This document shows positions 3,337 to 59,613 of a stretch of DNA of 64,000 nucleotides, one piece after another. The translations under genes and the position numbers were made by a program. Every line of letters begins with the position of its first letter. Position 1 is the first letter of the stretch. Below the pieces are notes generated by a model. It did not search any database. It was given only the letters and a program-made list of their open reading frames with translations, and was not told the origin of the DNA. The stretch comes from an uncultured Ruminococcus sp. (GTDB lineage: Bacteria; Bacillota; Clostridia; Oscillospirales; Acutalibacteraceae), in NCBI GenBank assembly GCA_902762375.1, contig CACWNY010000027.1:11400-75399 (forward strand), in the 5' to 3' direction.

Positions 3337-3340
3337 TCAT

Positions 3341-3484
3341 CTGTGCGGTTGGAATGATTTTCTCATCGTATAGCTGTGACAATTAAAAGTTTTGTCCACT
3401 TTTTCAAAAGTGGTGGGGTCAAGGGGCAAAGCCCCTTGTGGGATTTTTAAGTTGACAGTAACTATCTGGCTTTCAACCGCACAG
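3341..3484 (+). repeat. MPE locus 2, internally deleted monomer with both terminal inverted repeats
   Basis: Left CTGTGCGGTTGGAA and right TTTCAACCGCACAG are inverted with 1 mismatch. A, B(CCAC/GTGG) and C are present. D and E are deleted at TTTTTAAG|TTGACAG. Starts 5 nt after the ABC ATPase stop. Confidence 0.88.
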
Positions 3485-3500
3485 ATAGACAACTTTTAAT

Positions 3501-4293: not shown

Positions 4294-5371
4294 TTGTATT
4301 CATCAGTATATCTACGAGGATATCTGTACACTTGCCACTGCTGACTTATCATGGGAAAAGCTGAAAAATAAAACTGTTCTTATCACTGGTGCTAACGGCT
4401 TTATCGCCTACTATCTGACAACAGCACTGCTGATACGAAACGATTTATATAACGATAATATTACTGTTCTTGCTTTAGTCCGAAATCAGGAAAAAGCTGA
4501 AAAGCGTTTCGGGGATATATTAAAGCGTGACGATATCAAATTGATTGTACAAGATGTCTGTGAGGATATTGCGACAGAAGATAAAGCCGATTATGTCATA
4601 CATTCTGCCAGTCAGGCAAGTGCCTATTTCTTTGAACATGACCCTGTCGGCACGATTGACGCTAATCTGACAGGTACTTATAAAGTTCTGGAATATTCCC
4701 GAAAATGTCATGCCGTAACACTGTTTGTTTCCAGTCTGAAAGTCTATGGCGACCTACATACGGGCAAAGCAAAAATTTCTGAGACGGATATCGGCTATCT
4801 TGACCCCACCAACTATAAAAACTGCTATGCACAAGGCAAAAGAGCTTCGGAAACTTTGTGTGCGTCCTTTCATAAACAGTACGGCATGAGTATCAAAATT
4901 GCCAGACCAAGCTATATTTACGGTGCGTCAAGTCTTGATGATGACAGAGTTTGGGCTCAGTTTATTGCCAATATCGTCAGAAATGAAAATATTCTCCTTA
5001 AAAGTGCAGGCACTCCGTATCGTTCTTTCTGTTATGTGACAGATACCGCCGTTGCCTTGCTGAAAATTCTCCTTGACGGTAAAGATATCTATCCTTACAA
5101 TATCTCTTCCGAAAATTCCAATGTCACTATACGGAATTTCGCTAAAACTGCTGTTGAGGCTTTCCCTGAAAGAAACCTCTCCCTTTCTTTTGCCAATAAG
5201 GAAGATGAAATCGAAAAAACAATCTCTATTATGGATAAAACACCCGAAATTCTTGACAGCACCCGTCTTAACGAACTGGGTTGGACTGCCAAAGTCAGTC
5301 TTACAGAGGGTATTCAGCGTGCAGTAAAAATTGTAGAACTTCAGTCGGGGAGTTCCTCCACGAACCCCTGA
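4274..5371 (+). CDS. NAD(P)-dependent SDR epimerase/dehydratase/reductase family protein
   Basis: Rossmann motif VLITGANGFIAYYL and catalytic YAQGK (YxxxK). The last 8 codons plus stop (SGSSSTNP*) are encoded by the G hairpin of a repeat element. Confidence 0.75.
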   Translation: MTYPILDCIHQYIYEDICTLATADLSWEKLKNKTVLITGANGFIAYYLTTALLIRNDLYNDNITVLALVRNQEKAEKRFGDILKRDDIKLIVQDVCEDIATEDKADYVIHSASQASAYFFEHDPVGTIDANLTGTYKVLEYSRKCHAVTLFVSSLKVYGDLHTGKAKISETDIGYLDPTNYKNCYAQGKRASETLCASFHKQYGMSIKIARPSYIYGASSLDDDRVWAQFIANIVRNENILLKSAGTPYRSFCYVTDTAVALLKILLDGKDIYPYNISSENSNVTIRNFAKTAVEAFPERNLSLSFANKEDEIEKTISIMDKTPEILDSTRLNELGWTAKVSLTEGIQRAVKIVELQSGSSSTNP

Positions 5372-6141: not shown

Positions 6142-6236
6142 TCGGGGAGTTCCTCCCCGAACCCCTGATTTAAGGGCTGTCGCCCTTAAAAATCCCACCC
6201 ACTTTTTTGAAAAAAAGTGGACAAAAAACTTTTAAT
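6142..6236 (-). repeat. MPE locus 4, half element G-D-B-A
   Basis: Near-identical to the left arm of locus 3: TCGGGGAGTTCCTCCCCGAACCCCTGATTTAAGGGCTGTCGCCCTTAAAAATCCCACCCACTTTT.... Confidence 0.9.
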
Positions 6237-12403: not shown

Positions 12404-12423
12404 TTTTCAAAAAATTTATCTAT

Positions 12424-12615
12424 CTGTGCGGTTGAAAATTAAATCGTTATTGTCAAAATTTGCTAACGCAAATTTTGGTTTGATTTTCAGGAGTTTAAGG
12501 GCTTCGCCCTTAAAAATCCCATCAGGGGCTTTGCCCCTGAACCCCACGAACTTTTTGAAAAAAGTTCGACAAAAACTTTTAATTGTCATAATAATCTCAA
12601 CTGTTCAGGTAGAAA
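12424..12615 (-). repeat. MPE locus 6, full monomer with both termini
   Basis: Left CTGTGCGGTTGAAA, then E, D, C (TCAGGGGC..GCCCCTGA), B (CGAAC..GTTCG), A, then right TCAACTGTTCAGGTAGAAA. Lies between the rnhA stop and the ldh RBS. Confidence 0.9.
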
Positions 12616-21500: not shown

Positions 21501-22654
21501 TATTGACACCGATACTTACCCCAAGCAATGCCTATACAAAGTATTCATGGACAAGTAGTGACACAACCGTTGCTACAGTCAATTCACAAGGCAAAGTTGC
21601 GGCAAAGAAAGCAGGTAAATCCGTCATTACCGTAGAAACTCTCAACGGTAAAACAGCTACCTGTACTGTTACTGTAAGTAAAGGACCATCAAGCGTAGCT
21701 ATTGATAAAACAACAGTACAGATGGGTGTAGGCAGAACCTATCAGCTTAATGCTTCTATTACGCCCAGTAATGCTGTTACTTATTGTAGTTGGAGTACCA
21801 GTAAGAAATCGATTGCCACAGTCAGCGGTAAAGGTCTTGTTACCGCAAAAGGTGTTGGTACAGCTGTAATTACCGTAAAGACATCGAATGGTAAGACAGC
21901 AGAATGTAAAGTTACTGTAAAAGCAGCACCAACAGAAATCACTTTGAATAAAACCGCACTGGATTTAGGTCTGGGACAGACTTATACCTTGCAGACAGCA
22001 TTGACCCCTACTAATGCTTATGTAATGAACACATGGAGCAGTAGTAACAGTAATATTGTTTCGGTAAATTCTGTAGGAAAGATTGCCGCAAAGAGTGTCG
22101 GAAAGGCTACCATTACGGTAAAAACCTATAACGGTCTTACTGCACAGTGTGTTGTTACTGTAAAGACAGCTCCTGAAAGTGTTGCGATTAACAAGACTGC
22201 CATCAATATTGCGGTAGGACAAGATGTCACATTGACTTCATCTCTTACACCTTCAGACGCATACACTTATTGTAGCTGGAGTAGCAGTGATAAGAATATT
22301 GCCACTGTTTCTTCAAGCGGTAAGGTTACAGGTGTAAAAGTCGGTACAGCGGTCATCACCGTAAAGACTTCCAACGGAAAAACCGCTACTTGTAAAGTGA
22401 CTGTCAAAAAAGCTCCCACTGCGATTGCTTTGAGTAAAACAGCAGTTACCCTCAATGTTGGAGAAAAAACAACACTCACTAAAACTTTAACACCATCAAA
22501 CGCATTTTCCACTTATAAATGGAAAAGCAGTAACACACTCGTTGCCACAGTAAACAGTAACGGTGAAATAACTGCCAAAGGAAAAGGTACAGCGACTATC
22601 ACAGTAACTACTTTCAACGGACAGAAAGCTACTTGTAAAGTCACTGTAAAATAA
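18524..22654 (+). CDS. secreted protein with 16 tandem Big_2 (bacterial Ig-like) domains
   Basis: GTG start after AAGGAGG. Signal peptide MRFLKKGLAVVLASIMLQSTVWTSVSA. I counted 16 repeats of the ...W.SS....ATVD..G.VT....G.A.ITV.T.NG.TA.C.V.V pattern. Confidence 0.85.
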   Translation: MRFLKKGLAVVLASIMLQSTVWTSVSAFNTEVSEVSAGTSSVESGVNPVKIVLDNTSLYLYEGESGQIGATLSPEDATETITWSTNNTKVATVDANGKVFGVSKGTATITAKTTNGLTASCTVNVSTMPQEVFLDKTSLTMVVKENYQLIPSVSPDDAYATYNWSSSDVSTVKVDENGLLTALKVGTATIAVTTSNGISTLCTVKVIALPTKITLDKTEVTLRPEETLTLRKSVTPSNATADYVWKSSNTKVATVDQTGKVTGVALGEAEITVTSSNGIVAQCHVDVKRYPDSIAFVYKNVSISTDAPNNKADLQTIISPEDSYTKLVWKSSDTKVATVDQTGKVTGRNVGQCTVTVTTDNGKSDTCTVNVSKESVTIDDIPKDESFLMYIGTTEQFTATVLPEGSTCTWSSNNPDVVSVDENGLLTGKSWGVAIITASISDNVSDSRIVVCGEEPKSIYMTIDGQKIADGATISVDAQDYLMIVPELETEWAVSKVVWTYEKNNTISFTVKKDTSVVTLRGLKPGTCKLTVTTENGKTAQCTIKVVAVVQSIDITNTPQPIKMNVGQKITLNKKITPSVAVSNYTWKSSNEEVATVNASGMVTAMKVGVTEISVTADNGVSASCEVQVCPLPDAITIVPSKVSLSLNEVATEGQTVKPSNTQLSIRYTPENAYSPTLKWASSDTSVVAVNSTTYVITAKDTGKAEVTVTTSNSKTATCEVEVTAKPSSVRFAESPSKYWIRVGEKATLTPIPTPAHAITSYKWSSSTPEVATIDENSGLITAKKFGETTITVETDNGKKATFKLKVYAKPTKAYFEQSAMSMYVTQEFTFKPLLSPENSITSGYEWESSDTSVATVDKNGKVIAKKIGNTVISATNDLGQSAKCIITVYPVPETVTLNQTSADINVYKTVTLVPSITPENALTAYTWKSSDTSIATVDENGKVKGVAVGTATVTVSTSNNKTATCKINVKKAPTNVSFEKTTLKLGEGQTSVLTPILTPSNAYTKYSWTSSDTTVATVNSQGKVAAKKAGKSVITVETLNGKTATCTVTVSKGPSSVAIDKTTVQMGVGRTYQLNASITPSNAVTYCSWSTSKKSIATVSGKGLVTAKGVGTAVITVKTSNGKTAECKVTVKAAPTEITLNKTALDLGLGQTYTLQTALTPTNAYVMNTWSSSNSNIVSVNSVGKIAAKSVGKATITVKTYNGLTAQCVVTVKTAPESVAINKTAINIAVGQDVTLTSSLTPSDAYTYCSWSSSDKNIATVSSSGKVTGVKVGTAVITVKTSNGKTATCKVTVKKAPTAIALSKTAVTLNVGEKTTLTKTLTPSNAFSTYKWKSSNTLVATVNSNGEITAKGKGTATITVTTFNGQKATCKVTVK

Positions 22655-23547: not shown

Positions 23548-24420
23548 TCACCCTTTCAGACTGTCAAAATTTGCTGACGCAAATTTTGAGTTGATTTTTG
23601 GGAGTTTAAGGGCTTCGCCCTTAAAAATCCCACAAGGGGCTTTGCCCCTTGACCCCACAAGCCTTTGAAAAGGCTTGACCGAAACTTTTAAGTGGGTGTA
23701 CAGCAGATATTCTTCCGTACAGCGGTTCAATAGGCTTAACTTTTCAGGCGGTAAACTGAAATTAAAAAGTTTATTATATTCGCAGTAAATACAATGTCGT
23801 AATGCTGTTGTAACGCTTTTTCCTGTAAAAATTGCATATTCTTTTATTTCGGAGATACAATTACCACAAATAAGTTTTCCGCTTTTGGGGAGGAAATACA
23901 TTTCCTCTTGTTCGTAAGCGTTGCACTGACAACAACATACCAAATCAGGCATATATCCGCTGAGTACCATTAACTGTAATTCTACAACTGATTTTATCAG
24001 CGGTGCTGGACGCTTATTTGTATCCAGCATATATAGGGCGTTGAGTATCAATCGAAGATAGCTTTCTGCTTCCGTTTCCTGTGGTGCAAGATAACGGGCA
24101 AGTTCACAGAAATATTCCGCCAACGACATCTTGACAATATCTGTTCTCAAATGAGCAAATATCTTTTCACTTACAGCGTCATCAATTATGTACGCTTCCC
24201 GACGCTTATATAAAGAAAGCTGTGCATAACACAACAGTCGGGTAGCTTGTCCTTTGGTGCTTTTCAGACTTTTGCAGTTCTTGACAAATGCTCTGATAAC
24301 ACCAAGTTTTCTTGTCAGAACGGTAACCAGTCGGTCTTTTTCTCCTACACTCTGTTCACCGATAATCAGTCCGTCAGTTTCTATCTTCAAACTATTCACC
24401 TTTGTCTTTTTGCGTATCAT
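23548..24420 (-). CDS. recO: DNA repair protein RecO, C-terminus replaced or extended by repeat-element sequence
   Basis: RecO N-terminal OB region (GLIIGEQSVGEKDRLVTVLTRKLGVIRAF) and Zn-finger CCQC...CGNC. The last ~45 aa (VSVKPFQRLVGSRGKAPCGIFKGEALKLPKINSKFASANFDSLKG) are encoded by repeat locus 23560..23692. Confidence 0.85.
   Translation of the reverse strand: MIRKKTKVNSLKIETDGLIIGEQSVGEKDRLVTVLTRKLGVIRAFVKNCKSLKSTKGQATRLLCYAQLSLYKRREAYIIDDAVSEKIFAHLRTDIVKMSLAEYFCELARYLAPQETEAESYLRLILNALYMLDTNKRPAPLIKSVVELQLMVLSGYMPDLVCCCQCNAYEQEEMYFLPKSGKLICGNCISEIKEYAIFTGKSVTTALRHCIYCEYNKLFNFSLPPEKLSLLNRCTEEYLLYTHLKVSVKPFQRLVGSRGKAPCGIFKGEALKLPKINSKFASANFDSLKG
23560..23692 (-). repeat. MPE locus 10, E-D-C-B-A, lying entirely inside the recO ORF 3' end
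   Basis: CAAAATTTGCTGACGCAAATTTTG, TTAAGGGCTTCGCCCTTAA, CAAGGGGCTTTGCCCCTTG, CAAGCCTTTGAAAAGGCTTG, GAAACTTTTAAG. Confidence 0.9.
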
Positions 24421-35142: not shown

Positions 35143-35168
35143 AATCTTACATACTCCTTAGTTATTTA

Positions 35169-35364
35169 GTCGGGGACGCTGTCCCCGAACCCCTGTTTAA
35201 GGGCTACCGCCCTTAAAAATCCTGTCCACTTTTTTGAAAAAAAGTGGACAATAAACAATCCGAACGAAGTGAGCCAGAAAAGTTTTTGTCAAACTTTTTT
35301 CAAAAAGTTTGTGGGGTTCAGGGGCAACGCCCCTGATGAAATTGTTAAGGGCAAAGCCCTTAAC
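35169..35364. repeat. MPE locus 16, dimer inside the que operon (between folE and queC)
   Basis: Left arm is G TCGGGGACGCTGTCCCCGA, D and B(CCAC). The linker is in inverted orientation (ATCCGAACGAAGTGAGCC). Right arm is A-B(CAAAC)-C-D. Confidence 0.9.
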
Positions 35365-40915: not shown

Positions 40916-40951
40916 AAAATGCCGTCTGTTATAACAGACGGCATTTTTTTG
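40916..40951 (+). terminator. intrinsic terminator after the sigma-r4-like gene
   Basis: AAAATGCCGTCTG-loop-CAGACGGCATTTT followed by a T-run. Confidence 0.8.
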
Positions 40952-40952
40952 T

Positions 40953-41227
40953 GTTAAGGGCGTTGCCTCTGTTAAGGGCGTTGCCCTTAACAATCCCATG
41001 AGGGGCTTTGCCCCTCAACCCCACGAACTTTTTAAAAAAAGTTCGACAAAAACTTTCAAGGCTCACTTCGTTCGGAAATCTTTATTTAAAGTGTTGGCGG
41101 TGAAACTTAAAAGTTTTTTGTCCACTTTTTTTCAAAAAAGTGGGCAGGGTTAAGGGGCGGCAGCCCCTTAGCAGGATTTTTAAAGGCGGCAGCCCTTAAA
41201 TCAGGAGTTCGGGGAGGAACTCCCCGA
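40953..41227. repeat. MPE locus 18, dimer (D-D-C-B-A | A-B-C-D-G)
   Basis: Left arm has a duplicated D and B(CGAAC). Linker GGCTCACTTCGTTCGGAAATC. Right arm has B(CCAC), C, D, and the G hairpin TTCGGGGAGGAACTCCCCGAA, which abuts the rplL terminator. Confidence 0.9.
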
Positions 41228-41262
41228 AAAAAAAGAAGTCGGTAAATTGCTTTACCGACACT
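41227..41262 (-). terminator. intrinsic terminator after rplL
   Basis: Minus strand GTCGGTAAA-GCAA-TTTACCGAC followed by TTCTTTTTTTT. Confidence 0.8.
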
Positions 41263-41281
41263 TTTCTTTATGGAAACGAAA

Positions 41282-42214: not shown

Positions 42215-42420
42215 AGTAATTTCACCTCCATAAAAAGTAACTGAATATCTCAAAGTGAAGTACTCACCGCCTATAGAGACGGGAGCTTCCTTTAATCCGC
42301 CCAACCTTGCAAAGGATTTCATTTTACGGGAATCAGTTTCCGAGGCTATGGGTTTTTTATGAGGCAAACCCTTCCCGTACTCCTTACGGTACTGCTGTCT
42401 TACGAACAACTTTTGAAAAC
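42215..42420 (-). promoter_or_regulatory. candidate ribosomal protein L10 leader
   Basis: About 200 nt of structured untranslated leader between a good promoter and the TTG start of rplJ. Position is consistent with the L10(L12)4 autoregulatory leader of Firmicutes. I did not verify the motif. Confidence 0.35.
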
Positions 42421-42424
42421 CTAT

Positions 42425-42453
42425 ATTTTAGCAACATATATTTATGTTGTCAA
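42425..42453 (-). promoter_or_regulatory. promoter for rplJ-rplL
   Basis: Minus strand TTGACA, 17 nt, TAAAAT. Confidence 0.45.
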
Positions 42454-42530
42454 GGAAAAAGTCAACCTTACGGCTGACGGGCAATTCATCTCCGACCTCT
42501 ATAGGTCGGAATTTCTTTGCCGTTTCAAGA

Positions 42531-45208: not shown

Positions 45209-45499
45209 GTTAAGGGCGTTGCCCTTAACAATCCCATGAGGGGCGTTGCCCCTGAACCCCACAAACTTTTTGAAAAAAGTTTGACAAAAACTTTCAAGGC
45301 TCACTGCGTTCGGATTTTCCGCTAAGGCTTAGCTGTGACACTTAAAAGTTTTTTGTCCACTTTTTTTCAAAAAAGTGGGCAGGGTTAAGGGGCGGCAGCC
45401 CCTTAGCAGGATTTTTAAGGGCGGCAGCCCTTAAACTTAAAGGGTTATTAAGGGGCGGCAGCCCCTTAGCAGGATTTTTAAGGGCGACAGCCCTTAAAC
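45209..45499. repeat. MPE locus 19, dimer with 63-bp tandem duplication of C-D
   Basis: Left arm is D-C-B(CAAAC). Linker GGCTCACTGCGTTCGGATTTTCC. Right arm is A-B(CCAC)-C-D-C-D. It abuts the stop codon of the HMGL-like gene. Confidence 0.9.
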
Positions 45500-46483
45500 T
45501 TAAAGAGTGTTGTCAAGGAGTTCATGGTAATATCTGGAGTAGTCGGTACGGTTGTCCTTGATGAACTTGATGGCGGCTGACGGGTGAGTGTTGAGAATAC
45601 CTGTCAGTAAATAGGGAATGTCATAGCCCCATACATTGCCTTCTTCTTTGAGCTTGACCATGTGTTTTTCGACAAAGTTCAGCAAGGGGAAAAGTTTGTA
45701 TTTGGGATTTCGCAGAAAACTTAACAAGGATTCTGTAAAACAGTTGCCTGCCCCACGCCCCATTCCGCTTATTGTAGAATCCAACATCTTGGCATTGTGC
45801 ATAAGAGCAGTTATGGTGTTGGCAAATGCAAGCTGTTGGTTGTTGTGAGCGTGCATACCGATTTTTTTATTGAATTTATCTCCGATTTCTACATACTGGT
45901 CAGTCAGACGGGCTATCTGTTCGGGATAGAAACAACCGAAACTATCAACAATATAAATGTAATCTGTACTGCTACGGGCAATTTCATTCAGACCGTTGAT
46001 AAGTTCTTCACTGCCTATTTTCGATACCGCCATAAGATTACAGGACACTTCATAACCTTTATTTTTAGCGTCCTCAATCATTTCGATTGCAGTCGGGATA
46101 GAGTTGATATAGGTAGCCACTCTAATCATGTCAACAGGACTGTCGCTTTTATCAAGAATATCCCTATGATAATTGGTTCTGCCAACATCAGCCATAACCG
46201 AAATCTTTAAATTGCTGTCATTGTCACCGACAATCGCACGGATATCGTCATCTTTACAGAATTTCCATTTTCCGTACTCACTCTCATCAAAAATATCTCT
46301 GTCTGCCTTATACCCGAACTCCATATAATCAATACCCGATAAAATACAGGTTCTGTATAAATCCCTGACAAACTCATCAGAAAAACGAAAATTGTTGACC
46401 AGTCCACCATCTCTTAATGTACAGTCAAGCACTTTCAAAGACGGACTGTAAGAAACTAAATTAGCATTGGTAATTTGTGCCAT
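45500..46483 (-). CDS. HMGL-like (pyruvate carboxyltransferase/aldolase TIM-barrel) family protein
   Basis: VLDCTLRDGGL and GMHAHNNQQLAFANT motifs. ATG 46483 follows GGAGG. Confidence 0.7.
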   Translation of the reverse strand: MAQITNANLVSYSPSLKVLDCTLRDGGLVNNFRFSDEFVRDLYRTCILSGIDYMEFGYKADRDIFDESEYGKWKFCKDDDIRAIVGDNDSNLKISVMADVGRTNYHRDILDKSDSPVDMIRVATYINSIPTAIEMIEDAKNKGYEVSCNLMAVSKIGSEELINGLNEIARSSTDYIYIVDSFGCFYPEQIARLTDQYVEIGDKFNKKIGMHAHNNQQLAFANTITALMHNAKMLDSTISGMGRGAGNCFTESLLSFLRNPKYKLFPLLNFVEKHMVKLKEEGNVWGYDIPYLLTGILNTHPSAAIKFIKDNRTDYSRYYHELLDNTL

Positions 46484-46607
46484 ATGAAAACCTCCATAAA
46501 AACGCTTATTTACTTTAGCACATAAAACTTTTACACTTTTATCTGCTAAATTATTCCTGATTTCATTGTTAATTATATACAGGCAAATAGATAATGTCAA
46601 GAAAAAT

Positions 46608-46842
46608 TTTCTACCTGAGAGTTAAAAATCAAATAGTTATTGTCAAAATTTGCTTTGCAAATTTTGTTTTGAATTTTTATCTGTTAAAGGGCTTCGCCCT
46701 TTAAAATCCCACAAGGGGTTTCACCCCTTGACCCCACCACTTTTTGAAAAAAGTGGACAAAAACTTTTAATTGTCATAGCTAAAGGTTGTTTTTCTCTAA
46801 TCAGGCATTTCAGAAAATTATTTCAACCGTTACAGGTGGAAA
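46608..46842 (-). repeat. MPE locus 20, complete 235-bp monomer with ~20-bp imperfect terminal inverted repeats
   Basis: Left TTTCTACCTGAGAGTTAAAAA and right TTTCAACCGTTACAGGTGGAAA. The internal order is E-D-C-B-A followed by a 50-nt A-side extension. Confidence 0.9.
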
Positions 46843-46943
46843 TTTTTTGATTTTTTGTCGAATAAGAAAAGTTTGTCTATTGCAGGAAAATTAAGACAAT
46901 GCTATAATCATAGAAAATGATAGATTTACGGAGAAAAACAGCT

Positions 46944-49307
46944 ATGACAGATTACGAAAAAGGACTGTCCGAACAAGAAGTCCGAAAGCGTTTGGAAAAC
47001 GGTCAATATAACAAAGCGGATAATTTTGAAACCAAGTCATTTTTACAGATTTTAAAAGATAATGTCTGTACGCTGTTCAATGCGATGAATTTATTTTTAG
47101 CGATAGCGGTTATCAGTGTAGGGTCATATAAAAACATTATGTTTATGATGGTAGTGATTATCAATGCTCTGATAGGTACTGTTCAGGAACTGCGGGCAAA
47201 AAAAACTATCGAAAAACTTTCCATTGTCGGCAAACAGAAAATCAAAGTCTTGCGTGACGGCAAGATTATCGAAGTCGATACAGAAGAACTGGTACTTGAC
47301 GATATATTTTTTCTGGAAAATGGCAATCAGGTTCCTACAGACTGTGTTGTGATAGAGGGCAGTTGTGAAGTCAATGAGTCCTTACTGACGGGAGAATCTG
47401 ATGCTGTGTTCAAAAATCCCGCTGACAAATTAATTTCAGGAAGTTTCATTGTCAGCGGAAAATGTAAGGTACAGGCGGAAAAAGTCGGTGGGGATAACTA
47501 TGCTTCTCATATTTTCAAAGGAGCAAGATATGTCAAAAAGGTCAATTCCCAGATTATGCAATCGCTTAATCTGATTATTAAAACAATGTCCATTGTCATT
47601 CTCCCTGTAGGAACACTGCTTTTTTTAAGACAGTATTTTGTCAGTAACGATATCCGACAATCTGTGATAGGTTCAGTCGGAGCATTGATTGGTATGATAC
47701 CCGAAGGTCTGATACTCCTGACAAGTACGGTTCTGGCGGTGGGGGTTATCCGTCTGTCAAAACAGAAAGTTCTCACACAGGAAATGCTTTGTATCGAAAC
47801 TTTAGCAAGAGTAGATGTCTTATGCCTGGATAAAACAGGTACGATTACCGAAGGTTGTATGGAAGTCAGCAAAATTATTCCTACAAATAACAGTACATCT
47901 GAACAACTGGAAAAGGCTTTATATGCACTTGGTCAGTGTTCACAGGATAATAACCCTACTATCAATGCAATCCGTGAGAAATTTTCAGGAAATACTACGC
48001 TTACACCTCAAAATATTATGCCTTTTTCGTCCGAAAAAAAATGGTCGGGAATTTATTTCGGTGAGGATATCGGCACTTATCTTATCGGTGCAGAAGAATT
48101 TTTATTGGGTGGTAAAAACAGTGAAATTCAGAAGATTATCAGAGATATTCCCAAAGGCTATCGTGTGATTACTGTAGCTTATTCGGAAAACAATTTTCAA
48201 GAAAGAAATCTGCCCGAAAATGTCGTACCGCTTGGTATAGTTGTGCTGAGGGATAAAATTCGTAAGGAAGCAAAAGCAACACTGGAATATTTTGACAAAC
48301 AAGGTGTGACAATTAAAGTGATTTCGGGGGATAATCCCGAAACGGTTTCCGCTGTAGCAGAACAGGCTGGGGTCAAAAACTATGATAAAGTAGTTGACGC
48401 AACTACCTTACAGACAGAAGAAGATATCTTTGACGCTGTAGAAAAATACACCGTATTCGGCAGGGTAACACCGAAACAGAAATTACAGATGGTGAAAGCC
48501 TTACAGAAACACTCCCACACAGTAGCAATGACAGGTGACGGTGTTAATGATGTACTGGCACTAAAAGAGGCAGATTGTTCCATTGCGATGGCAAGTGGTA
48601 GTGAGTCGGCAAGGTGTGTTGCCCAACTGGTTTTGCTCGATTCCAATTTTGCCTCCATGCCGAAAGTTCTGGCCGAAGGCAGACGCTCTATCAATAATAT
48701 CCAGCGTTCCGCCTCACTGTTTCTGGTCAAGACCATATTTTCTACAATACTTGCTGTTATTTTTGTGTTCTGGGGTCAACAGTACCCTTTCTCTCCCATT
48801 CAGATGACTTTGGTCAATGCGTTCTGTATCGGTTTCCCGTCATTCGTGCTGGCTCTTGAACCCAATGAAGATATGGTCAAAGGTAATTTCCTGATGAACA
48901 TTCTCAACAAAGCCGTTCCAGGAGGTATAACGGTTGTATTTGCGGTTGTCATGGTGAAAATTCTGGAAATATTCTGTCAGTTCGATGCAGAATTTTCTTC
49001 TACTCTCGCCGTTTCACTGACTGCCTTTACAGGATTGATGGTCATTTTCAAAACAAGTCTGCCGTTTAATCTTATCCGCAGTCTGATGTTTGCCATTTCG
49101 GTAAGCGGTATGGTATTCGGAATTACTTACTCCAAATTCGTTATCCGAAAATTTATAGGTATTCATAACTTTTTCGGATTTGTGGATATGTCACAGACTT
49201 TTTTAGTTTATTTTCTGATTGGTGCAGGCGTAAGTATAGGGATTTTTTTGACGGTTACTTTCCTTCGAAAAAAATTATTTGACAGGTTTAAGGGCTGCCA
49301 CCCTTAA
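46944..49307 (+). CDS. cation-transporting P-type ATPase
   Basis: TGES, CLDKTGTITEG, MTGDGVNDVLALKEADCSIAM. Start at 46944 or 46917. The last codons FKGCHP* lie in the D hairpin of a repeat element. Confidence 0.87.
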   Translation: MTDYEKGLSEQEVRKRLENGQYNKADNFETKSFLQILKDNVCTLFNAMNLFLAIAVISVGSYKNIMFMMVVIINALIGTVQELRAKKTIEKLSIVGKQKIKVLRDGKIIEVDTEELVLDDIFFLENGNQVPTDCVVIEGSCEVNESLLTGESDAVFKNPADKLISGSFIVSGKCKVQAEKVGGDNYASHIFKGARYVKKVNSQIMQSLNLIIKTMSIVILPVGTLLFLRQYFVSNDIRQSVIGSVGALIGMIPEGLILLTSTVLAVGVIRLSKQKVLTQEMLCIETLARVDVLCLDKTGTITEGCMEVSKIIPTNNSTSEQLEKALYALGQCSQDNNPTINAIREKFSGNTTLTPQNIMPFSSEKKWSGIYFGEDIGTYLIGAEEFLLGGKNSEIQKIIRDIPKGYRVITVAYSENNFQERNLPENVVPLGIVVLRDKIRKEAKATLEYFDKQGVTIKVISGDNPETVSAVAEQAGVKNYDKVVDATTLQTEEDIFDAVEKYTVFGRVTPKQKLQMVKALQKHSHTVAMTGDGVNDVLALKEADCSIAMASGSESARCVAQLVLLDSNFASMPKVLAEGRRSINNIQRSASLFLVKTIFSTILAVIFVFWGQQYPFSPIQMTLVNAFCIGFPSFVLALEPNEDMVKGNFLMNILNKAVPGGITVVFAVVMVKILEIFCQFDAEFSSTLAVSLTAFTGLMVIFKTSLPFNLIRSLMFAISVSGMVFGITYSKFVIRKFIGIHNFFGFVDMSQTFLVYFLIGAGVSIGIFLTVTFLRKKLFDRFKGCHP

Positions 49308-49590
49308 AAATCCTGCTAAGGGGCTGCCGCCCCTTAACCCCGCCCACTTTTCCCCCAAAAGTGGACAAAAAACTTTTATGGCTCACTTCGTTCGGATTGC
49401 TATCTCAAAGTATAGCGATGACAATTAAAAGTTTTTGTCGAACTTTTTTCAAAAAGTTCGTGGGGTTCAGGGGCAAAGCCCCTGATGGGATTTTTAAGGG
49501 CAAAGCCCGATTTTTAAGGGCAAAGCCCTTAAACTCCCCGAAATTCCAAACAAAATTTGCGTAAGCAAATTTTGACATTATCTGTTCTGA
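49287..49590. repeat. MPE locus 21, head-to-head dimer
   Basis: Left arm is D-C-B(CCAC). Linker GGCTCACTTCGTTCGGATTGCTATCTCAAAG. Right arm is A-B(CGAAC)-C-D with a 20-bp duplication, then E. The left D hairpin contains the ATPase stop codon. Confidence 0.9.
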
Positions 49591-49704: not shown

Positions 49705-51498
49705 TTACTGAATAGGTTCAAAATCCGCTACACCGTGTTTGCAAAGCGGACAGATGAAATCATCAGGCAAATCGCCTTCGTGAACATATCCGCATACTTT
49801 ACATACCCAACCTTTTTTACCTTCGGTCTGGGGTTTGGGTTTGACATTGTTCTGATAATAGGTATAAGTCATCGTTTCCTTATCAGAAACAACTCTCGCC
49901 TCACTCACACTACAAATGAACATACCATGTGTATCAAGGTCGATATAGTCCTCAACTTTCAGCGACATAAAAGAATTGATATACTTGTTCAGGAATACAA
50001 GACCGTTGTCAGAACGGAGTTTTTCATAATCAACAAACTTATCCGTATTTCTGCCACTCTGGAAACCGAAATTCTCAAATACACTGAACGGTGCCTCTAC
50101 CGAAAGACAGTTGACATTCATCATACCTGTCTGTTTGATGACATGATGAGAATAATTCTGTTTGTTGATGCAGACAGCAACTCTGTTAGGTGTACTTGTG
50201 ACCTGCGTTACAGTATTGACAATAAGACCGTTATCCTTTTTGCCGTCATTGGAAGTCACTACATACAGACCATAGCCGATATTAAAGAGAGCTTTAAGGT
50301 CATTTTTATTAGCGGTTTCCTCGTGTTGAGCCATATAGTCCATACAAAGTTCGTTGGCAAGTTTTTCAAGCTGGTCTTTGCTGTCCTGATTGAGTGCGGA
50401 AAGAATTTTAACATTGTTTTCCGTATAGGTAATTTTCTTACAGCCTTCAAGCATTTTCCTGATGACCTTGTTCGCCATAGGAGCCCACGAGCCGTTTTCA
50501 ATAATAGCAACTGTTCTGTTCTGGAAATTGCGTTCGGTGAGGTGTTCGATGAACTCTCGCATAAAGGGGAAAATATCCGCATTGTAGGTAGTGGTAGCCA
50601 GTACAATTCTGCCATAACGGAAAGCGTCCTCTACAGCTTCTGCCATGTCGCACCTTGCCAAATCGTTGACAACAACTTTCGGACAACCCTTTACCCTTAA
50701 TTTTTCTGCCAGAATTTCCACAGCTTTTTTGGTATTGCCGTATACGGAAGTGTAGGCAATCATCACACCGTCACTTTCTACACCATAACTTGACCATGTG
50801 TTGTACAGTCCTAAATAGTAACCCAGATTTTCTGTCAGTACAGGACCATGTAACGGACAAATGATTTCGATATCCAGTTTAGTTGTCTTTTTGAGCAATG
50901 CCTGTACCTGCATACCGTATTTTCCGACAATACCTATATAGTAGCGTCTTGCCTCACAAGCCCAGTCTTCGTCAACATCTAAAGCACCGAATTTTCCGAA
51001 ACCGTCTGCCGAAAACAGTACCTTATCCTTGCTGTCATAAGTGACAATAACTTCGGGCCAATGTACCATAGGTGCAGTAACAAAAGTCAGGGTATGTGTA
51101 CCTAAGTCTAAGGTATCTCCCTCACCCACAACAATTCTTCTTTCTGCAAAGTCCGTACCGAAAAAGTTTTTCATCATGTTGAATGCCTTTGCCGAAGATA
51201 CAACTGTTGCCTCAGGATAGTTCTTTAAGAACACCTCGATATTAGCAGAGTGGTCTGGTTCCATATGCTGAACAACAAGATAGTCAGGGTTTCTGCCTTG
51301 CAGAGCGTCTTCGACATTGTTCAGCCATTCGTGGGTGAAGTTGCGGTCAACCGTATCCATAACCGCAATTTTTTCGTCCATGATAACATAGGAGTTGTAC
51401 GCCATACCGTTGGGAACATCATACTGTCCCTCAAACAGGTCAATTTTATGGTCGTTTACGCCTACATACTTGATGTCATTGGTGATATTCATTTGCAA
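49705..51498 (-). CDS. multidomain flavodiiron protein (metallo-beta-lactamase + flavodoxin + flavin-reductase-like + rubredoxin)
   Basis: HMEPDHS diiron site, flavodoxin-like YTSVYGNTKK, a flavin-reductase-like middle domain, and C-terminal rubredoxin WVCKVCGYVHEG...CPLCKH. Confidence 0.85.
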   Translation of the reverse strand: MQMNITNDIKYVGVNDHKIDLFEGQYDVPNGMAYNSYVIMDEKIAVMDTVDRNFTHEWLNNVEDALQGRNPDYLVVQHMEPDHSANIEVFLKNYPEATVVSSAKAFNMMKNFFGTDFAERRIVVGEGDTLDLGTHTLTFVTAPMVHWPEVIVTYDSKDKVLFSADGFGKFGALDVDEDWACEARRYYIGIVGKYGMQVQALLKKTTKLDIEIICPLHGPVLTENLGYYLGLYNTWSSYGVESDGVMIAYTSVYGNTKKAVEILAEKLRVKGCPKVVVNDLARCDMAEAVEDAFRYGRIVLATTTYNADIFPFMREFIEHLTERNFQNRTVAIIENGSWAPMANKVIRKMLEGCKKITYTENNVKILSALNQDSKDQLEKLANELCMDYMAQHEETANKNDLKALFNIGYGLYVVTSNDGKKDNGLIVNTVTQVTSTPNRVAVCINKQNYSHHVIKQTGMMNVNCLSVEAPFSVFENFGFQSGRNTDKFVDYEKLRSDNGLVFLNKYINSFMSLKVEDYIDLDTHGMFICSVSEARVVSDKETMTYTYYQNNVKPKPQTEGKKGWVCKVCGYVHEGDLPDDFICPLCKHGVADFEPIQ

Positions 51499-51523: not shown

Positions 51524-51689
51524 CCAACTGTGCGGTTAAAAATCCAATAGTTACTGTCAAAATTTGCTTACGCAAATTTTGTTTGGATTTGGGGAGTTTA
51601 AGGGCTTTGCCCTTAAAAATCCCACAAGGGGCTTTGCCCCTTGACCCCACAAGCCTTTGAAAAGGCTTGACCGAAACTTTTAATTGTCA
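51524..51689 (-). repeat. MPE locus 22, T-E-D-C-B-A
   Basis: CCAACTGTGCGGTTAAAAA terminus. B is the CAAGCC/GGCTTG variant. Confidence 0.9.
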
Positions 51690-51878
51690 TTTGTCCTCAT
51701 TGTAGCATATTCATTTCTGTTTTTCAACAAAAATTGGAAAATCAATTTGCAAATTTTGTGTGAATTTAAAAAATTCTTTTTCAGAAAAAATCCGCATAAT
51801 TCTGTCAAAGAAAAATCGCTGTGTTAATTCGGCGATTATGAGGCAAAATAACATCAGCACGAAAACGGAGGTGTTATT

Positions 51879-54853: not shown

Positions 54854-54970
54854 TATGATTATAACACATAAAAATCAAAAAATGTATGCTGTCAGCATAC
54901 CAAAAAATTAAAGTAATCTTGTATGATATAGCTACAAGGTTACTTTTTTATTTTACAGGAGGTAATGACC

Positions 54971-55885
54971 ATGAAAAAAAGAAAATATATTGCTATTATT
55001 TTAGCAGGAATGATGTTATTGTCGGCAACAGCGGTACTTGGCGGTTGTGGAAAAGAAACAGAAACTGTCGCACAGACCTCAAGCATTATATTGTACGATG
55101 ACACAAGCGAGGAAGAAACTGAAGAAGAAACTGAGGAAGAAACCGAAGAGGACACCGAAGAAGAAACTGAAGAAGAAACTGAAAAGAAAACCGAAGCTCC
55201 TACCGAAAAACCTACACCGAAACCGACAGAAAAACCTACTTCAAAACCTACAAACAAAACAAGTACCTCAAATACATCAATTCTTTCAGCAGAGGATTTA
55301 GAAAGCGTATTAGATGAAGATATCCAAAAAACTACTGACACCCTTAAAGAAAGATTTTCACAAATTTCTGTCAATTCCTATACTGATTATATCAACAATT
55401 ATAGTACAATAGAAAAATTATATGAGGATATTGCTACAGAAACTCAAAAATTATGTGGAAGATTATATCAATACACCTATGAATATGCAATAGTGATTAT
55501 GTCATCAGAAAAATCAAGCAAGAAAAAATATAGTGATTTTGAAGAAATAGAAGATTACATATATGAAGATGCGTGTGACGAAATCAACGATGAAATTTAT
55601 GAGGGATTACTTGACGATATGCAGGACGCTTTCTATGAAGGTGTATTGGATAAAGACGATGATAGCAGTTCATTCGATGACTGGTGGGAAACAAAATCTA
55701 ATGAATATGATATTTGGTATGATACAAGGTCAAGTGTATATGACAGTTATTATGATACAAAATCTGATATTTATGATTTCTGTTATGATATGAGAAGTTG
55801 TTTGTATGATGATAAAACTGACCGTGCTGAAAAGAAAATGGAAAAATTCAAAGAAAAAGTTGAAAAAGTCAATAGTGGTTTATAA
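54971..55885 (+). CDS. lipoprotein with acidic E/T-rich repeat linker
   Basis: MKKRKYIAIILAGMMLLSATAVLGGC lipobox, an (EETE)n and (TEKPT)n low-complexity stretch, and a D/Y-rich C-terminal domain. Confidence 0.6.
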   Translation: MKKRKYIAIILAGMMLLSATAVLGGCGKETETVAQTSSIILYDDTSEEETEEETEEETEEDTEEETEEETEKKTEAPTEKPTPKPTEKPTSKPTNKTSTSNTSILSAEDLESVLDEDIQKTTDTLKERFSQISVNSYTDYINNYSTIEKLYEDIATETQKLCGRLYQYTYEYAIVIMSSEKSSKKKYSDFEEIEDYIYEDACDEINDEIYEGLLDDMQDAFYEGVLDKDDDSSSFDDWWETKSNEYDIWYDTRSSVYDSYYDTKSDIYDFCYDMRSCLYDDKTDRAEKKMEKFKEKVEKVNSGL

Positions 55886-57930: not shown

Positions 57931-58222
57931 TTCGGGGACGCTGTCCCCGAACCCCCTGTTTAAGGGCTGCCGCCCTTAAAAATCCTGCCCACTTTTTTGA
58001 AAAAAAGTGGACAAAAAACTTTTATGGTTTTGTAGCGTTCGGATTGTTATCTCAAGGTATAGCTATGACAATTAAAAGTTTTTGTCGAACTTTTGAGGGC
58101 AAGTTCGTGGGGTTCAGGGGCAAAGCCCCTGATGGGATTTTTAAGGGCGAAGCCCTTAAACTCATCAAAATCCAAACAAAATTTGCGTCAGCAAATTTTG
58201 ACAATGACTATTTGATTTTCAA
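57931..58222. repeat. MPE locus 25, dimer between FHA-rodA and pbp
   Basis: Left arm is G TTCGGGGACGCTGTCCCCGAA, D and B(CCAC). The linker is a variant, GTAGCGTTCGGATTGTTATCTCAAGG. Right arm is A-B(CGAAC with loop GAGGGC)-C-D-E plus a decayed terminus. Confidence 0.9.
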
Positions 58223-58239
58223 CATTTAGGAGTATTGTT

Positions 58240-59613
58240 ATGACGAAAATTCATTTCAGAACAATTCTTGTATTGATTATTGCGTTAGCTGTCATTTTCG
58301 GAATGGGTCTTTTTGTCTGGCGGATAGTCAGTAATTCCAGCGAGTGGATACAGCATACCTATAACGGACATCTTTCGGGAAACGGCGGACTTGCCGAAGC
58401 AGGAATGATTTATGACCGCAACGGTAATGTGCTGGCATATTCAGAAGATAAACTCCGTCTTTACAACTATGACGAAGTTACCCGACTGTCAACACTTCAT
58501 GTGGTAGGTGACGACAGTATGAATATTTCGTCAGCCATTCAGAGTTCCTACCGTTCTTATCTGACAGGATATAATTTCTTTTTCGGGCTTGGCTTACCAA
58601 AGACTTTACGCAGGGGAAATGATATCACCTTGAATATAGACAGCAATGCCTGTAATACTGCCTATTATGCTCTGAACGGCTATAACGGTGCGGTTGTGGT
58701 TTATAATTATAAAACAGGAGAAGTCCTTTGCAGTGTCAGTACACCCACTTACGACCCGTTAAATCCCCCTGAAATCACCGAAGAAAATGAAAGTGAATAT
58801 GATGGAATTTATGTCGATAAAGTGCTTGCAGGACGATATGCTCCAGGTTCTACATTCAAAATAGTCACGCTTGCCTGTGCTTTGGAAAACATTCCGAATG
58901 TGGAAAACGAAATTTTCTCTTGCAACGGTGCAAAGAAAATCGGCGAAAAAGAAGTTACCTGTATGCATGTTCACGGTGATTTGAATTTGAAAGAGGGTCT
59001 GTCACAATCGTGTAATATTGTTTTCGCAGAACTTGCCGAACGGCTGGGCAAAGATAAAATGACACAAACCGCTGAAAAACTGGGATTTAATACTTCCTAT
59101 GAAATCAACGGTACCTACACCGCCAAAGGAAATTACAATGTAGAAAAAGCTAATAAAAATGATTTGGCATGGTCGGGAATAGGACAGTATACCGTAGAAG
59201 CCAATCCTATGCAGATGGCGATTATGTGCGGTGCGATTGCCAACGGTGGAACGGCAATTCTTCCTGATGAGATTAAAAGTGGTGTGACAAAATCCTTTGT
59301 CAGTAACGGTCAGAAAAATTTAATCAGCAGTGATATGGCTCAGAAACTTGACGAATATATGCGATATGATGTTACCAACTATTACGGAGATGACCTTTTT
59401 CCTAGCCTGACGGTCTGTGCGAAAACAGGAACGGCAGAAGTCGGAGAAGGAAAAGAACCTCACGCATGGATGATAGGTTATGCACAAGATGAGGACGCAC
59501 CTCTTGCTTTTGCGGTGATTGTCGAAAACGGTGGTTACGGGTACAGTACAGCAGGTCCTGTCGCTGTAGCCGCTATGGAGGCTTGTGCGTTGATTACCCG
59601 CAACAATCAGTAG
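58240..59613 (+). CDS. class B penicillin-binding protein (transpeptidase)
   Basis: N-terminal TM anchor, with STFK, SQSCN (SxN) and KTGTAE motifs. Confidence 0.87.
   Translation: MTKIHFRTILVLIIALAVIFGMGLFVWRIVSNSSEWIQHTYNGHLSGNGGLAEAGMIYDRNGNVLAYSEDKLRLYNYDEVTRLSTLHVVGDDSMNISSAIQSSYRSYLTGYNFFFGLGLPKTLRRGNDITLNIDSNACNTAYYALNGYNGAVVVYNYKTGEVLCSVSTPTYDPLNPPEITEENESEYDGIYVDKVLAGRYAPGSTFKIVTLACALENIPNVENEIFSCNGAKKIGEKEVTCMHVHGDLNLKEGLSQSCNIVFAELAERLGKDKMTQTAEKLGFNTSYEINGTYTAKGNYNVEKANKNDLAWSGIGQYTVEANPMQMAIMCGAIANGGTAILPDEIKSGVTKSFVSNGQKNLISSDMAQKLDEYMRYDVTNYYGDDLFPSLTVCAKTGTAEVGEGKEPHAWMIGYAQDEDAPLAFAVIVENGGYGYSTAGPVAVAAMEACALITRNNQ

What the first reader, a model, noticed from the sequence alone, without database searches (positions are those of the whole stretch)
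46608..46842. Full-length 235-bp copy shows about 20-bp imperfect terminal inverted repeats: MITE-like architecture with no mobilising gene in view
Locus 20 begins TTTCTACCTGAGAGTTAAAAA and ends TTTCAACCGTTACAGGTGGAAA, which are inverted copies of each other. Loci 2 (CTGTGCGGTTGGAA ... TTTCAACCGCACAG), 6 and 7 also carry both termini, while many others keep only one. This suggests the hairpin modules are the cargo of a non-autonomous TIR-bounded element, not just REP-like hairpins. I could not find a consistent target-site duplication by eye.
Basis: seen in the sequence. Interest (0 to 1): 0.7.

Follow-up and report, generated by a model that had tools for sequence, protein, structure and literature searches.

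The report
Dense hairpin-carrying MITE family in Ruminococcus
The 235-bp repeat is a real miniature transposon with inverted ends and a 7-8-bp target duplication. It is absent from the same site in related rumen Ruminococcus genomes and belongs to a family that fills about 8% of this window, so it is a new family of a well-known kind.

Summary
The element is 46611-46839 (229 bp). Its ends are CTACCTGAGAG-TTAAAAA and TTTCAACCGTTACAGGTGG, and direct AAATTTT copies flank it at 46604-46610 and 46840-46846. This TIR is weak on its own: 8% of random end pairs score as well. The family supplies the support: the 14-nt T motif has 10 hits against 1.1 expected, all at copy ends.

Two related MAGs (flanking ATPase 93% and 79% identical) have the same intergenic site empty, with one AAATTTT. 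A 99.5%-identical strain keeps a complete copy at locus 22, with 17/22 TIRs and a perfect non-palindromic 8-bp duplication, AAATGAAT. In the window, a 46-nt deletion has removed that copy's second terminus. This shows how one-ended copies arise.

The MITE reading is supported. The element is non-autonomous, TIR-bounded, makes a 7-8-bp TSD and prefers AAAWWTTT-like targets. No transposase was found in the window or in the other fetched DNA (about 302 kb searched in all).

About 42 copies at 26 loci make up 8.2% of the 64 kb. Four internal hairpins are near-perfect (98.7% Watson-Crick) with compensatory variants, and they are better conserved than the TIRs. The architecture is modular, like pneumococcal BOX. 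The mobilising enzyme and the role of the hairpins remain unknown.

The parts
46604..46610 (.). Left copy of the target-site duplication, AAATTTT
   Evidence: Present once in the empty sites L004 and L005 and twice in the window
46611..46629 (+). Left terminal inverted repeat (T motif, degenerate here): CTACCTGAGAGTTAAAAAT
   Evidence: Aligns with T of 10 other copies. The insertion boundary from the empty site falls here
46630..46642 (+). Linker between T and hairpin H1 (CAAATAGTTATTG)
   Evidence: Conserved in T-bearing copies
46644..46666 (+). Hairpin H1: CAAAATTTGC-TTT-GCAAATTTTG, followed by a T-rich run (terminator-like in this orientation)
   Evidence: (I6). A compensatory variant AAAATC/GATTTT occurs in 3 copies
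46684..46704 (+). Hairpin H2: TTAAAGGGC-TTC-GCCCTTTAA
   Evidence: Present in 37 of 38 strong copies
46712..46730 (+). Hairpin H3: CAAGGGGT-TTC-ACCCCTTG
   Evidence: Stem variants CAAGG/CCTTG, TCAGG/CCTGA, TAAGG/CCTTA and TGAGG/CCTCA
46737..46756 (+). Hairpin H4: CCACTTTTT-GA-AAAAAGTGG
   Evidence: Stem variants CCAC/GTGG, CGAAC/GTTCG, CAAGCC/GGCTTG and CAAAC/GTTTG
46757..46780 (+). K module: ACAAAAACTTTTAATTGTCATAGC
   Evidence: Contains an AAAACTTTT stretch that resembles the preferred target
46781..46820 (+). Tail between K and the right terminus
   Evidence: Shared with loci 7 and 17. Poorly conserved
46821..46839 (-). Right terminal inverted repeat T': TTTCAACCGTTACAGGTGG
46840..46846 (.). 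Right copy of the target-site duplication, AAATTTT
46572..46600 (-). Flanking, not part of the element: perfect sigma-70-type promoter (TTGACA-17-TATAAT) of the HMGL-like gene 45500-46483(-). It lies just outside the left end
   Evidence: Conserved in the empty site L004
46880..46908 (+). Flanking, not part of the element: probable promoter of the P-type ATPase gene (TTGCAG-17-TGcTATAAT)
   Evidence: Read by eye; conserved in L004 and L005. Not listed by the consensus scan
12420..12612 (+). Locus 6: family copy with both termini. TIR 16/22; flanks AAATTTAT / AAATCTAT
   Evidence: Also filled in the 95%-LDH relative L045
15723..15946 (-). Locus 7: copy with both termini (the H1-side T is degenerate). 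Flanks AAAATTT / AAAATTT
3338..3488 (-). Locus 2: internally deleted copy (lacks H1 and H2) with both termini. TIR 16/22; no TSD recognisable
51524..51691 (+). Locus 22: copy that has lost its tail, T' and one TSD copy through a 46-nt deletion after position 51690. It is complete in strain L025 and absent in L043/L044

Best explanation
The 229-bp sequence is one copy of a non-autonomous DNA transposon (MITE) family of an uncultured rumen Ruminococcus.

A full unit reads: T (about 18-19-bp inverted-repeat end, C[T/C]A[C/T/A]CTG[A/T]GCGGTTGAAA), linker, four short perfect hairpins (H1-H4), K module, tail, T' (inverted T).

Inferred mechanism: a transposase encoded elsewhere in the genome binds the two T ends. 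It inserts the unit into AAAWWTTT-like AT-rich intergenic sites with a 7-8-bp staggered cut. Repair of that cut gives the flanking direct duplication.

After insertion, copies decay quickly by microhomology-mediated deletion, module duplication, and recombination between inverted copies. This leaves one-ended and hairpin-only remnants and head-to-head composites.

Shown here: the termini, the target duplication, the insertion polymorphism, one decay step, and the absence of any coding capacity or nearby transposase.

Inferred only: the transposase itself, its family, and the origin of most hairpin-only copies by decay.

The hairpins ride as cargo. Their near-perfect pairing suggests either selection on structure or self-correction of palindromes.
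For: Empty sites. L004 (RUG11850; flanking ATPase 93% identical) and L005 (RUG11803; 79%) align on both sides of locus 20 and lack exactly the element plus one AAATTTT copy. L043/L044 (FprA 94% identical) lack locus 22. L047/L048 lack composite locus 25.

TIR plus TSD. In strain L025, locus 22 reads CCAACTGTGCGGTT...AACCGCACAGATGG. Its TIR matches at 17/22 (1 of 2000 random pairs score as well), and it is flanked by AAATGAAT on both sides. That duplication is not palindromic, so it cannot be an extension of the TIR. Locus 6 has 7/8; loci 20 and 7 have 7/7.

T is strictly terminal: 10 hits against 1.08 expected, all at copy edges.

Target preference: the flanks outside T are A-rich at -9 to -6 and T-rich at -3 to -1.

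Decay observed directly. The only 3 indels between the window and a 99.5%-identical strain over 20 kb all lie inside family copies. One of them removes the tail, T' and a TSD copy between AATTGTC microhomologies.

Multi-copy: 42 profile hits at 26 loci, covering 8.2% of the window.

Non-coding and non-autonomous: no transposase or integrase in the window or in the other fetched DNA, about 302 kb searched in all. No Rfam family matches.
Against: No cognate IS or transposase was found, so trans-mobilisation is inferred.

Only 4 window copies (plus locus 22 in a sister strain) have both ends. Most copies (about 20 of 40) start at H2 and lack both T and H1.

The 5' starts cluster at module boundaries (T, H1, H2) rather than being ragged. 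Simple random decay does not predict this.

The hairpin stems are more conserved (0.95-0.98) than T (0.76). This is the opposite of what is expected if only the TIRs matter.

The TSD length is not uniform by simple reading: 7 at loci 20 and 7, and 8 at loci 6 and 22.

Locus 20's own TIR is not significant in isolation.

The locus 22 and locus 25 empty sites have diverged flanks, so only locus 20 gives a clean filled/empty junction.
Confidence: 0.8

Rival explanations
1. REP/BIME-like host-maintained palindromic units. On this view the GC-rich hairpins (H2, H3, H0) are the primary repeat. They are spread and rearranged by a RAYT-type Y1 transposase or by recombination, and T-linker-H1 and K-tail-T' are accessory mosaic motifs, as in E. 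coli BIMEs.
For: Hairpin cores are the most frequent and best conserved modules: H2 is in 37 of 38 copies, while T is in about 8-11. Copy starts cluster at module boundaries. Modules duplicate in tandem: loci 9, 18, 19 and 21, and a 20-nt H2 duplication separates near-identical strains. Head-to-head pairs resemble REPINs.
Against: The clean polymorphic insertions (loci 20 and 22) are complete T...T' units with 7-8-bp duplications. Y1/HUH transposition does not produce such duplications. No RAYT/Y1_Tnp-like gene appears in the window. T loss by deletion was seen directly, which explains T-less copies without a second mechanism.
Confidence: 0.1
2. A hairpin-guided single-strand transposon remnant (an IS200/IS605-type PATE). 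It would insert 3' of an AAATTT-like target without duplication, and the flanking repeat would be the target on one side and a similar cleavage site at the other end.
For: The element has perfect subterminal and internal hairpins. For loci 20 and 7 the near-palindromic AAATTTT flank can be read either as a TSD or as part of the ends.
Against: Locus 22 in L025 is flanked by AAATGAAT on both sides. That sequence is neither palindromic nor conserved between copies, so it is a true duplication of local target DNA. The ends are inverted repeats of each other, unlike IS200/IS605 left and right ends. No TnpA(Y1) or TnpB gene was seen.
Confidence: 0.04
3. A dispersed structured RNA or regulatory module (small RNA, terminator, attenuator or mRNA stabiliser) that selection keeps between genes. 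On this view its inverted ends are incidental.
For: The fold is far more stable than shuffles (z = -4.4 as RNA, -4.9 as DNA). Stems show compensatory variants. H1 followed by a T run scores as terminator-like. Some copies sit in transcribed positions: locus 22 lies between the -10 box and the RBS of the FprA-like gene.
Against: No Rfam match. Copies show no evident orientation rule relative to neighbouring genes (read by eye). Locus 20 lies between two divergent promoters, where no transcript is expected. Neighbouring genes keep their own classical terminators next to the copies. Mispairs are so rare (1 G:T, 1 A:C) that there is no sign of the G:U tolerance typical of RNA-level selection. Insertion polymorphism with a TSD shows mobility.
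Confidence: 0.06

Closest known systems
Prokaryotic MITEs in general (for example Coxiella QMITE2, Neisseria Correia elements, cyanobacterial Nezha, pneumococcal RUP)
   Same: It is small (about 190-230 bp), non-coding, AT-rich and intergenic. It has terminal inverted repeats of about 18-20 bp, a short target duplication, many copies, a strongly folded structure, and presence/absence differences between relatives. QMITE2 has direct repeats of 7-9 bp and TIRs of 23-29 bp (PMC10969869), which is the same range as here.
   Different: No cognate IS has been identified. The interior is an array of four independent perfect hairpins, not one long TIR-driven stem. The hairpins are better conserved than the TIRs. 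The local load is 8.2% of the sequence and about 400 loci per Mb. The highest values in a census of 183,232 genomes were 123 per Mb and 1.23% of the genome (PMC11602168). The window may not represent the whole genome.
BOX elements of Streptococcus pneumoniae and S. suis (boxA - boxB(n) - boxC)
   Same: It is a composite, modular repeat in a low-GC Gram-positive bacterium. Distinct terminal modules form the inverted ends, and internal stem-loop modules vary in number. Length differs between strains through gain and loss of modules. Elements insert into one another (PMC3049150).
   Different: No sequence relationship is claimed and none was tested. The BOX paper reports finding 'no clear evidence' of something in the regions flanking insertions; the excerpt does not say what, and that BOX lacks a clear target duplication is my recollection. 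Here a 7-8-bp TSD is documented. BOX has one kind of internal module repeated in tandem, whereas this family has four different hairpins in fixed order plus an alternative fifth (H0).
REP / BIME / REPIN elements with RAYT transposases (from my own knowledge of the literature)
   Same: Both have GC-rich short hairpins, a mosaic arrangement with other motifs, head-to-head pairs and very high copy number in intergenic DNA.
   Different: REP and REPIN elements have no TIR-plus-TSD signature and depend on a Y1 (RAYT) gene. Here the polymorphic insertions are TIR-bounded with duplications, and no RAYT gene was seen.

Membership tests
MITE (non-autonomous class II element) | Small size with no coding capacity for a transposase | tested here: met
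   Full copies are 151-229 bp. The only ORF across locus 20 is a 66-aa TTG-start frame.
MITE (non-autonomous class II element) | Terminal inverted repeats | tested here: met
   TIR matches are 17/22 (locus 22 in L025), 16/22 (loci 2 and 6) and 15/22 (locus 20). The T motif is found only at copy ends.
MITE (non-autonomous class II element) | Target-site duplication flanking the insertion | tested here: met
   AAATGAAT 8/8, AAATTTAT/AAATCTAT 7/8, AAATTTT 7/7 and AAAATTT 7/7. The empty site holds a single copy. Locus 2 shows none.
MITE (non-autonomous class II element) | Multiple dispersed copies in the genome | tested here: met
   42 profile hits at 26 loci in 64 kb. Copies also occur in related MAGs and metagenome contigs.
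MITE (non-autonomous class II element) | Insertion polymorphism: empty and filled orthologous sites | tested here: met
   Locus 20 is empty in L004 and L005, locus 22 in L043/L044 and locus 25 in L047/L048.
MITE (non-autonomous class II element) | A cognate autonomous IS with matching inverted repeats in the same genome | not testable with these tools
   None was found in the window or in about 302 kb of fetched DNA. The whole genome of this lineage could not be scanned, and no IS reference library was available.
BOX-type modular repeat | Distinct terminal modules enclosing a variable set of internal stem-loop modules | tested here: met
   Module map. Module gain and loss between strains is shown. 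This is an architectural resemblance only.
BOX-type modular repeat | Sequence homology to boxA, boxB or boxC | not tested
   No BOX sequences were compared. No homology is claimed.
REP/REPIN-RAYT system | Associated RAYT (Y1 transposase) gene and insertion without target duplication | tested here: not met
   No such gene is in the window. Insertions carry 7-8-bp duplications.
IS200/IS605-derived PATE | Asymmetric ends with subterminal hairpins and insertion next to a fixed short target without duplication | tested here: not met
   The ends are inverted repeats of each other, and the duplicated flank differs between copies: AAATGAAT against AAATTTT.
Known RNA families (Rfam 15) | Covariance-model match at the gathering score | tested here: not met
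   There are no hits in the window at gathering threshold. The best sub-threshold hits have E = 0.39-0.48.

The most novel reading that the evidence does not exclude
The hairpin array may not be passive cargo. It could be a structure kept under selection that the host exploits at the DNA or RNA level, for example in 5'UTRs, at gene ends, or as recombination and inversion sites in head-to-head composites. In that case this Ruminococcus lineage would carry the densest MITE load yet described in a free-living bacterium, about 8% of its DNA. The elements would then be actively reshaping gene ends, UTRs and synteny.
Probability: 0.2. Interest if true: 0.65.

Novelty: new member of a known kind. Interest (0 to 1): 0.42.

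Why it matters
This is a clean, well-documented case of an active or recently active MITE family in an uncultured rumen Firmicute. Four points make it useful.

- At about one locus per 2.5 kb, the family probably explains why short-read MAG contigs of this clade break at intergenic regions. Several relatives' contigs end inside a copy (L004, L005, L029, L035-L038, L045).
- The family alters gene ends, a 5'UTR and possibly a ribosome-binding site. It also coincides with synteny breaks and small inversions between strains that are 95-98% identical.
- It provides dense strain-typing markers.
- The near-perfect, compensated hairpins offer a tractable test of whether MITE cargo is selected or merely self-correcting.

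It does not reveal a new kind of mobile element.

Tried and rejected
- **Viral contigs.** A scan for T-linker-H1 gave 17 stretches, all chance matches in coding DNA or unrelated repeats.
- **JGI metagenomes.** A scan with a 30-base T-linker-H1 pattern gave only 2 contigs, so a large census of ends was not possible.
- **Plasmid and phage collections.** BLAST of the element found no match.
- **Rfam.** Nothing at the gathering or E-value thresholds.
- **Genome collection.** The scan with the ATPase gave only 2 short MAG contigs. These were enough for the empty site but not for a genome-wide search for an IS.
- **LDH homologues.** These were meant to find an empty site for locus 6. The 95% relative is filled and its contig starts inside the copy. 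The 421-aa hit came from an unrelated organism.
- **Extension beyond the window's right end.** This found RecA, RecX and GntR but no transposase.
- **An alternative reading I considered.** The outer TTT...AAA might belong to the TIR, with a blunt insertion into AAA|TTT and a TSD of 1, 3 or 5 bp. I rejected it because of the non-palindromic AAATGAAT duplication at locus 22 in L025.
- **A mistaken T'.** I first took TTTTTCAACAAAAATTGG, right of locus 22, for a degenerate T'. The empty site shows it is flanking DNA.
- **Column-wise covariation.** Counts on the MAFFT alignment A1 were abandoned because subfamilies with longer loops are out of register. An anchor-based count replaced them.
- **Locus 25 empty sites.** The flanks are too diverged to define boundaries or a TSD.

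Full report
**What is at the coordinates**

Window 46608-46842 lies in the 460-bp gap between two divergently transcribed genes. One is an HMGL-like gene at 45500-46483 (-). The other is a P-type ATPase at 46944-49307 (+). The quoted termini are present. Between them are four short perfect hairpins:
- H1: CAAAATTTGC/GCAAATTTTG
- H2: TTAAAGGGC/GCCCTTTAA
- H3: CAAGGGGT/ACCCCTTG
- H4: CCACTTTTT/AAAAAGTGG

A conserved K module, ACAAAAACTTTTAATTGTCATAGC, and a 40-nt tail follow. The sequence folds far better than shuffles, with z = -4.9 as DNA and -4.4 as RNA. A perfect TTGACA-17-TATAAT promoter for the left gene sits just outside the left end. By eye, a TGcTATAAT promoter for the ATPase sits outside the right end. 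The element therefore lies between the two promoters.

**Organism and family**

The flanking ATPase is 93% and 79% identical to proteins of two 'uncultured Ruminococcus sp.' rumen MAGs, RUG11850 and RUG11803. A profile built from 11 window copies finds 42 hits at 26 intergenic loci, covering 5,261 bp or 8.2% of the window.

Copy starts cluster in three classes: at T (11 copies), at H1 (7) and at H2 (about 20). Copy ends cluster at K, at K plus tail, or at T'. Only loci 2, 6, 7 and 20 have a true T'. Ten loci are head-to-head composites of two half-elements.

No Rfam family, tRNA, plasmid or phage sequence matches. The window encodes only housekeeping genes, with no transposase, integrase or Y1/HUH gene.

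**Are the inverted ends real?**

For locus 20 alone the evidence is weak. The ends match at 15 of 22 positions with gaps, and 8% of random end pairs do as well. The left T of this copy is degenerate.

The family evidence is strong. CTGWGCGGTTGAAA occurs 10 times at <=2 mismatches against 1.08 expected. Every occurrence, in the window and in about 302 kb of fetched relatives, is the outermost conserved block of a copy, followed inward by linker-H1 or tail-K. Other two-ended copies have much better TIRs. Loci 2 and 6 match at 16/22 (2 and 12 of 5000 random pairs), and locus 22 in a sister strain matches at 17/22 (1 of 2000).

**Empty sites**

The RUG11850 contig (L004) aligns with the window at high identity on both sides of locus 20 and lacks exactly 236 nt. 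The empty site reads ...AATGTCAAGAcAAATTTTTTGATTTTTTGTCG. The filled site reads ...AATGTCAAGAAAAATTTT[CTACCTG...CAGGTGG]AAATTTTTTGATTTTTTGTCG. RUG11803 (L005) is also empty at this site. The element is therefore 46611-46839.

AAATTT is palindromic, so this one site cannot separate a 7-bp duplication from a shorter one with longer TIRs. A second case settles it.

An ENA contig is 99.5% identical to the window (L025, L034 and L001). It differs from the window by only three indels of 3 nt or more in 20 kb, and all three lie inside family copies. One is a 46-nt segment missing from the window at 51691. In L025, locus 22 is a complete element, CCAACTGTGCGGTT...AACCGCACAGATGG, flanked on both sides by AAATGAAT. 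That 8-mer is not palindromic and differs from the flanks of other copies, so it is a true target duplication.

The window copy lost its tail, T' and one duplication copy between AATTGTC microhomologies. This shows directly how one-ended copies arise.

Locus 22 is absent from the 94%-identical lineage (L043/L044). Composite locus 25 is absent from two lineages with 86-88% identical flanking protein (L047, L048). Their flanks are too diverged to read a duplication.

The remaining two-ended copies give:
- locus 6: AAATTTAT / AAATCTAT
- locus 7: AAAATTT / AAAATTT
- locus 2: nothing recognisable

An 8-bp duplication fits all four informative copies with at most 2 mismatches. A 7-bp reading fits two of them exactly. 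Flanks outside T are A-rich at -9 to -6 and T-rich at -3 to -1, which implies an AAAWWTTT-like target.

**Mechanism**

The anatomy is that of a MITE: short, non-coding, TIR-bounded, with a target duplication, many copies and presence/absence between relatives. The most likely mechanism is mobilisation in trans. A DDE-type transposase would recognise the T ends and make a 7-8-bp staggered cut in AT-rich targets. That step is inferred, because no matching IS was found in any DNA I could reach and the genome could not be scanned.

After insertion, structural change is fast. I saw deletions, a 20-nt half-duplication of H2, and loss of 32 nt from a composite centre between strains that differ by 0.5%. 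The roughly 60-bp centre of composite loci is inverted between the window and relatives at 95% (locus 19 against L027) and 98% identity (locus 16 against L026). This fits recombination between the inverted arms.

**The hairpins**

Arm positions outside the invariant GC cores pair as Watson-Crick in 98.7% of cells, against 70.9% when partners are shuffled among copies (maximum 78.7% in 1000 shuffles). H1 and H4 behave the same way.

Each hairpin exists in several fully complementary variants:
- H1: AAAATT/AATTTT and AAAATC/GATTTT
- H2: TTAAG/CTTAA and TAAAG/CTTTA
- H3: four stem types
- H4: CCAC, CGAAC, CAAGCC and CAAAC stems

Stems are the best conserved part of the family, with majority-base frequency 0.95-0.98 against 0.76 for T. 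Non-Watson-Crick pairs are too rare to show the G:T-over-A:C bias expected of RNA-level selection.

This points to a constraint on pairing in DNA or on both strands. Candidates are a host or element function, or templated self-correction of quasi-palindromes. I could not distinguish these. The variants define a few subfamilies, so the number of independent compensatory events is small.

**Rivals**

A REP/BIME-RAYT-type system explains the dominance and modularity of the hairpins. It does not explain the TIR-plus-duplication insertions, and no Y1 gene was seen.

An IS200/IS605-like single-strand mechanism is excluded by the AAATGAAT duplication and the symmetric ends.

A dispersed RNA regulator is not supported by orientation, by position (locus 20 lies between divergent promoters) or by Rfam. 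Individual copies do sit in transcribed places.

**Comparison with known elements and novelty**

The TIR and duplication sizes fall within the range of described bacterial MITEs, for example Coxiella QMITE2 with 7-9-bp direct repeats (PMC10969869). The modular build, with distinct end modules around variable internal stem-loops and module gain and loss between strains, resembles pneumococcal and S. suis BOX elements (PMC3049150).

I found no paper describing such a family in Ruminococcus. The local load, about 400 loci per Mb and 8.2% of the sequence, far exceeds the maxima of a 183,232-genome census: 123 per Mb and 1.23% (PMC11602168). One window may not be representative, and that census used a different detection method.

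My verdict is a new member of a known kind. It has unusually high density and unusually well-kept hairpin cargo.

**Verdict on the finding**

The missing pieces are the transposase and the reason the hairpins are kept.

Noticed in passing
window 45290-45350 (locus 19) vs L027 4930-5010; window 35251-35278 (locus 16) vs L026 9488-9540: The roughly 60-bp centre of head-to-head composite loci is inverted between the window and relatives that are 95% and 98% identical. At locus 16 it is also partly deleted. This suggests frequent flipping by recombination between the inverted K/H4 arms.
   Followed up: partly
window 35251, 49489-49508, 51691: The only three indels of 3 nt or more between the window and a 99.5%-identical ENA contig over 20 kb all lie inside family copies. 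They are a 32-nt loss in a composite centre, a 20-nt half-duplication of H2, and a 46-nt loss of tail, T' and TSD.
   Followed up: yes
window 42260-42524: An extra segment of about 265 bp lies in the rplA-rplJ (L1-L10) intergenic region. It is absent from five close relatives (95-99% identity) and is not a member of this repeat family. In the strains that carry it, L10 is called as 224 aa instead of 173 aa.
   Followed up: partly
window 51524-51703: Locus 22 sits between the -10 box (TACAAT) and the ribosome-binding site of the FprA-like flavoprotein gene (49705-51492, -). It should therefore be transcribed as a structured 5'UTR of about 180 nt, which relatives L043/L044 lack.
   Followed up: partly
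window 5345-5371; 49278-49307; 23548-23694: Several ORFs run into family copies and take their last codons and stop codon from them. Examples are the epimerase 4274-5371, the P-type ATPase ending at 49307 inside H2 of locus 21, and RecO 23548-24420 (-), whose last 45 or so codons overlap locus 10.
   Followed up: no
window 58210-58240: At locus 25 the degenerate T end (TTTCAACATTTAGGAGTA) supplies the AGGAG ribosome-binding site of the penicillin-binding-protein gene starting at 58240. Relatives without the element use a different RBS.
   Followed up: no
window 46644-46676 and other H1 copies: H1 followed by TTTTGAATTT scores as an intrinsic-terminator-like site in the T-to-K orientation. Copies show no evident orientation rule relative to upstream genes, and neighbouring genes keep their own classical terminators beside the copies (for example 40925-40952 and 41234-41275).
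   Followed up: partly
L005 2451-2500; L027 4460-5115; L039-L042: Synteny differs between relatives exactly at element-bearing gaps. In RUG11803 the ATPase is followed directly by the SIR2 gene, which lies 10 kb away in the window. In L027 a Big_2 protein gene replaces the HMGL-like gene upstream of L33. Many relatives' contigs end inside a family copy.
   Followed up: no
window 5345-5363, 6142-6160, 35167-35190, 41209-41227, 57932-57950: A fifth hairpin module, H0 (TCGGGGAG-TTC-CTCCCCGA, with compensated variant GGGGAC/GTCCCC), caps the H2 end of some copies instead of H1 and T. Its relation to the T-bounded unit is unexplained.
   Followed up: no
window 18569-22654 and 55096-55215: There is a 1361-aa protein with 15 Big_2 domains encoded by 243-bp tandem repeats. 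Separately, a 12-nt periodic GAA-rich (Glu/Thr-rich) repeat lies in the ORF 54965-55885.
   Followed up: no
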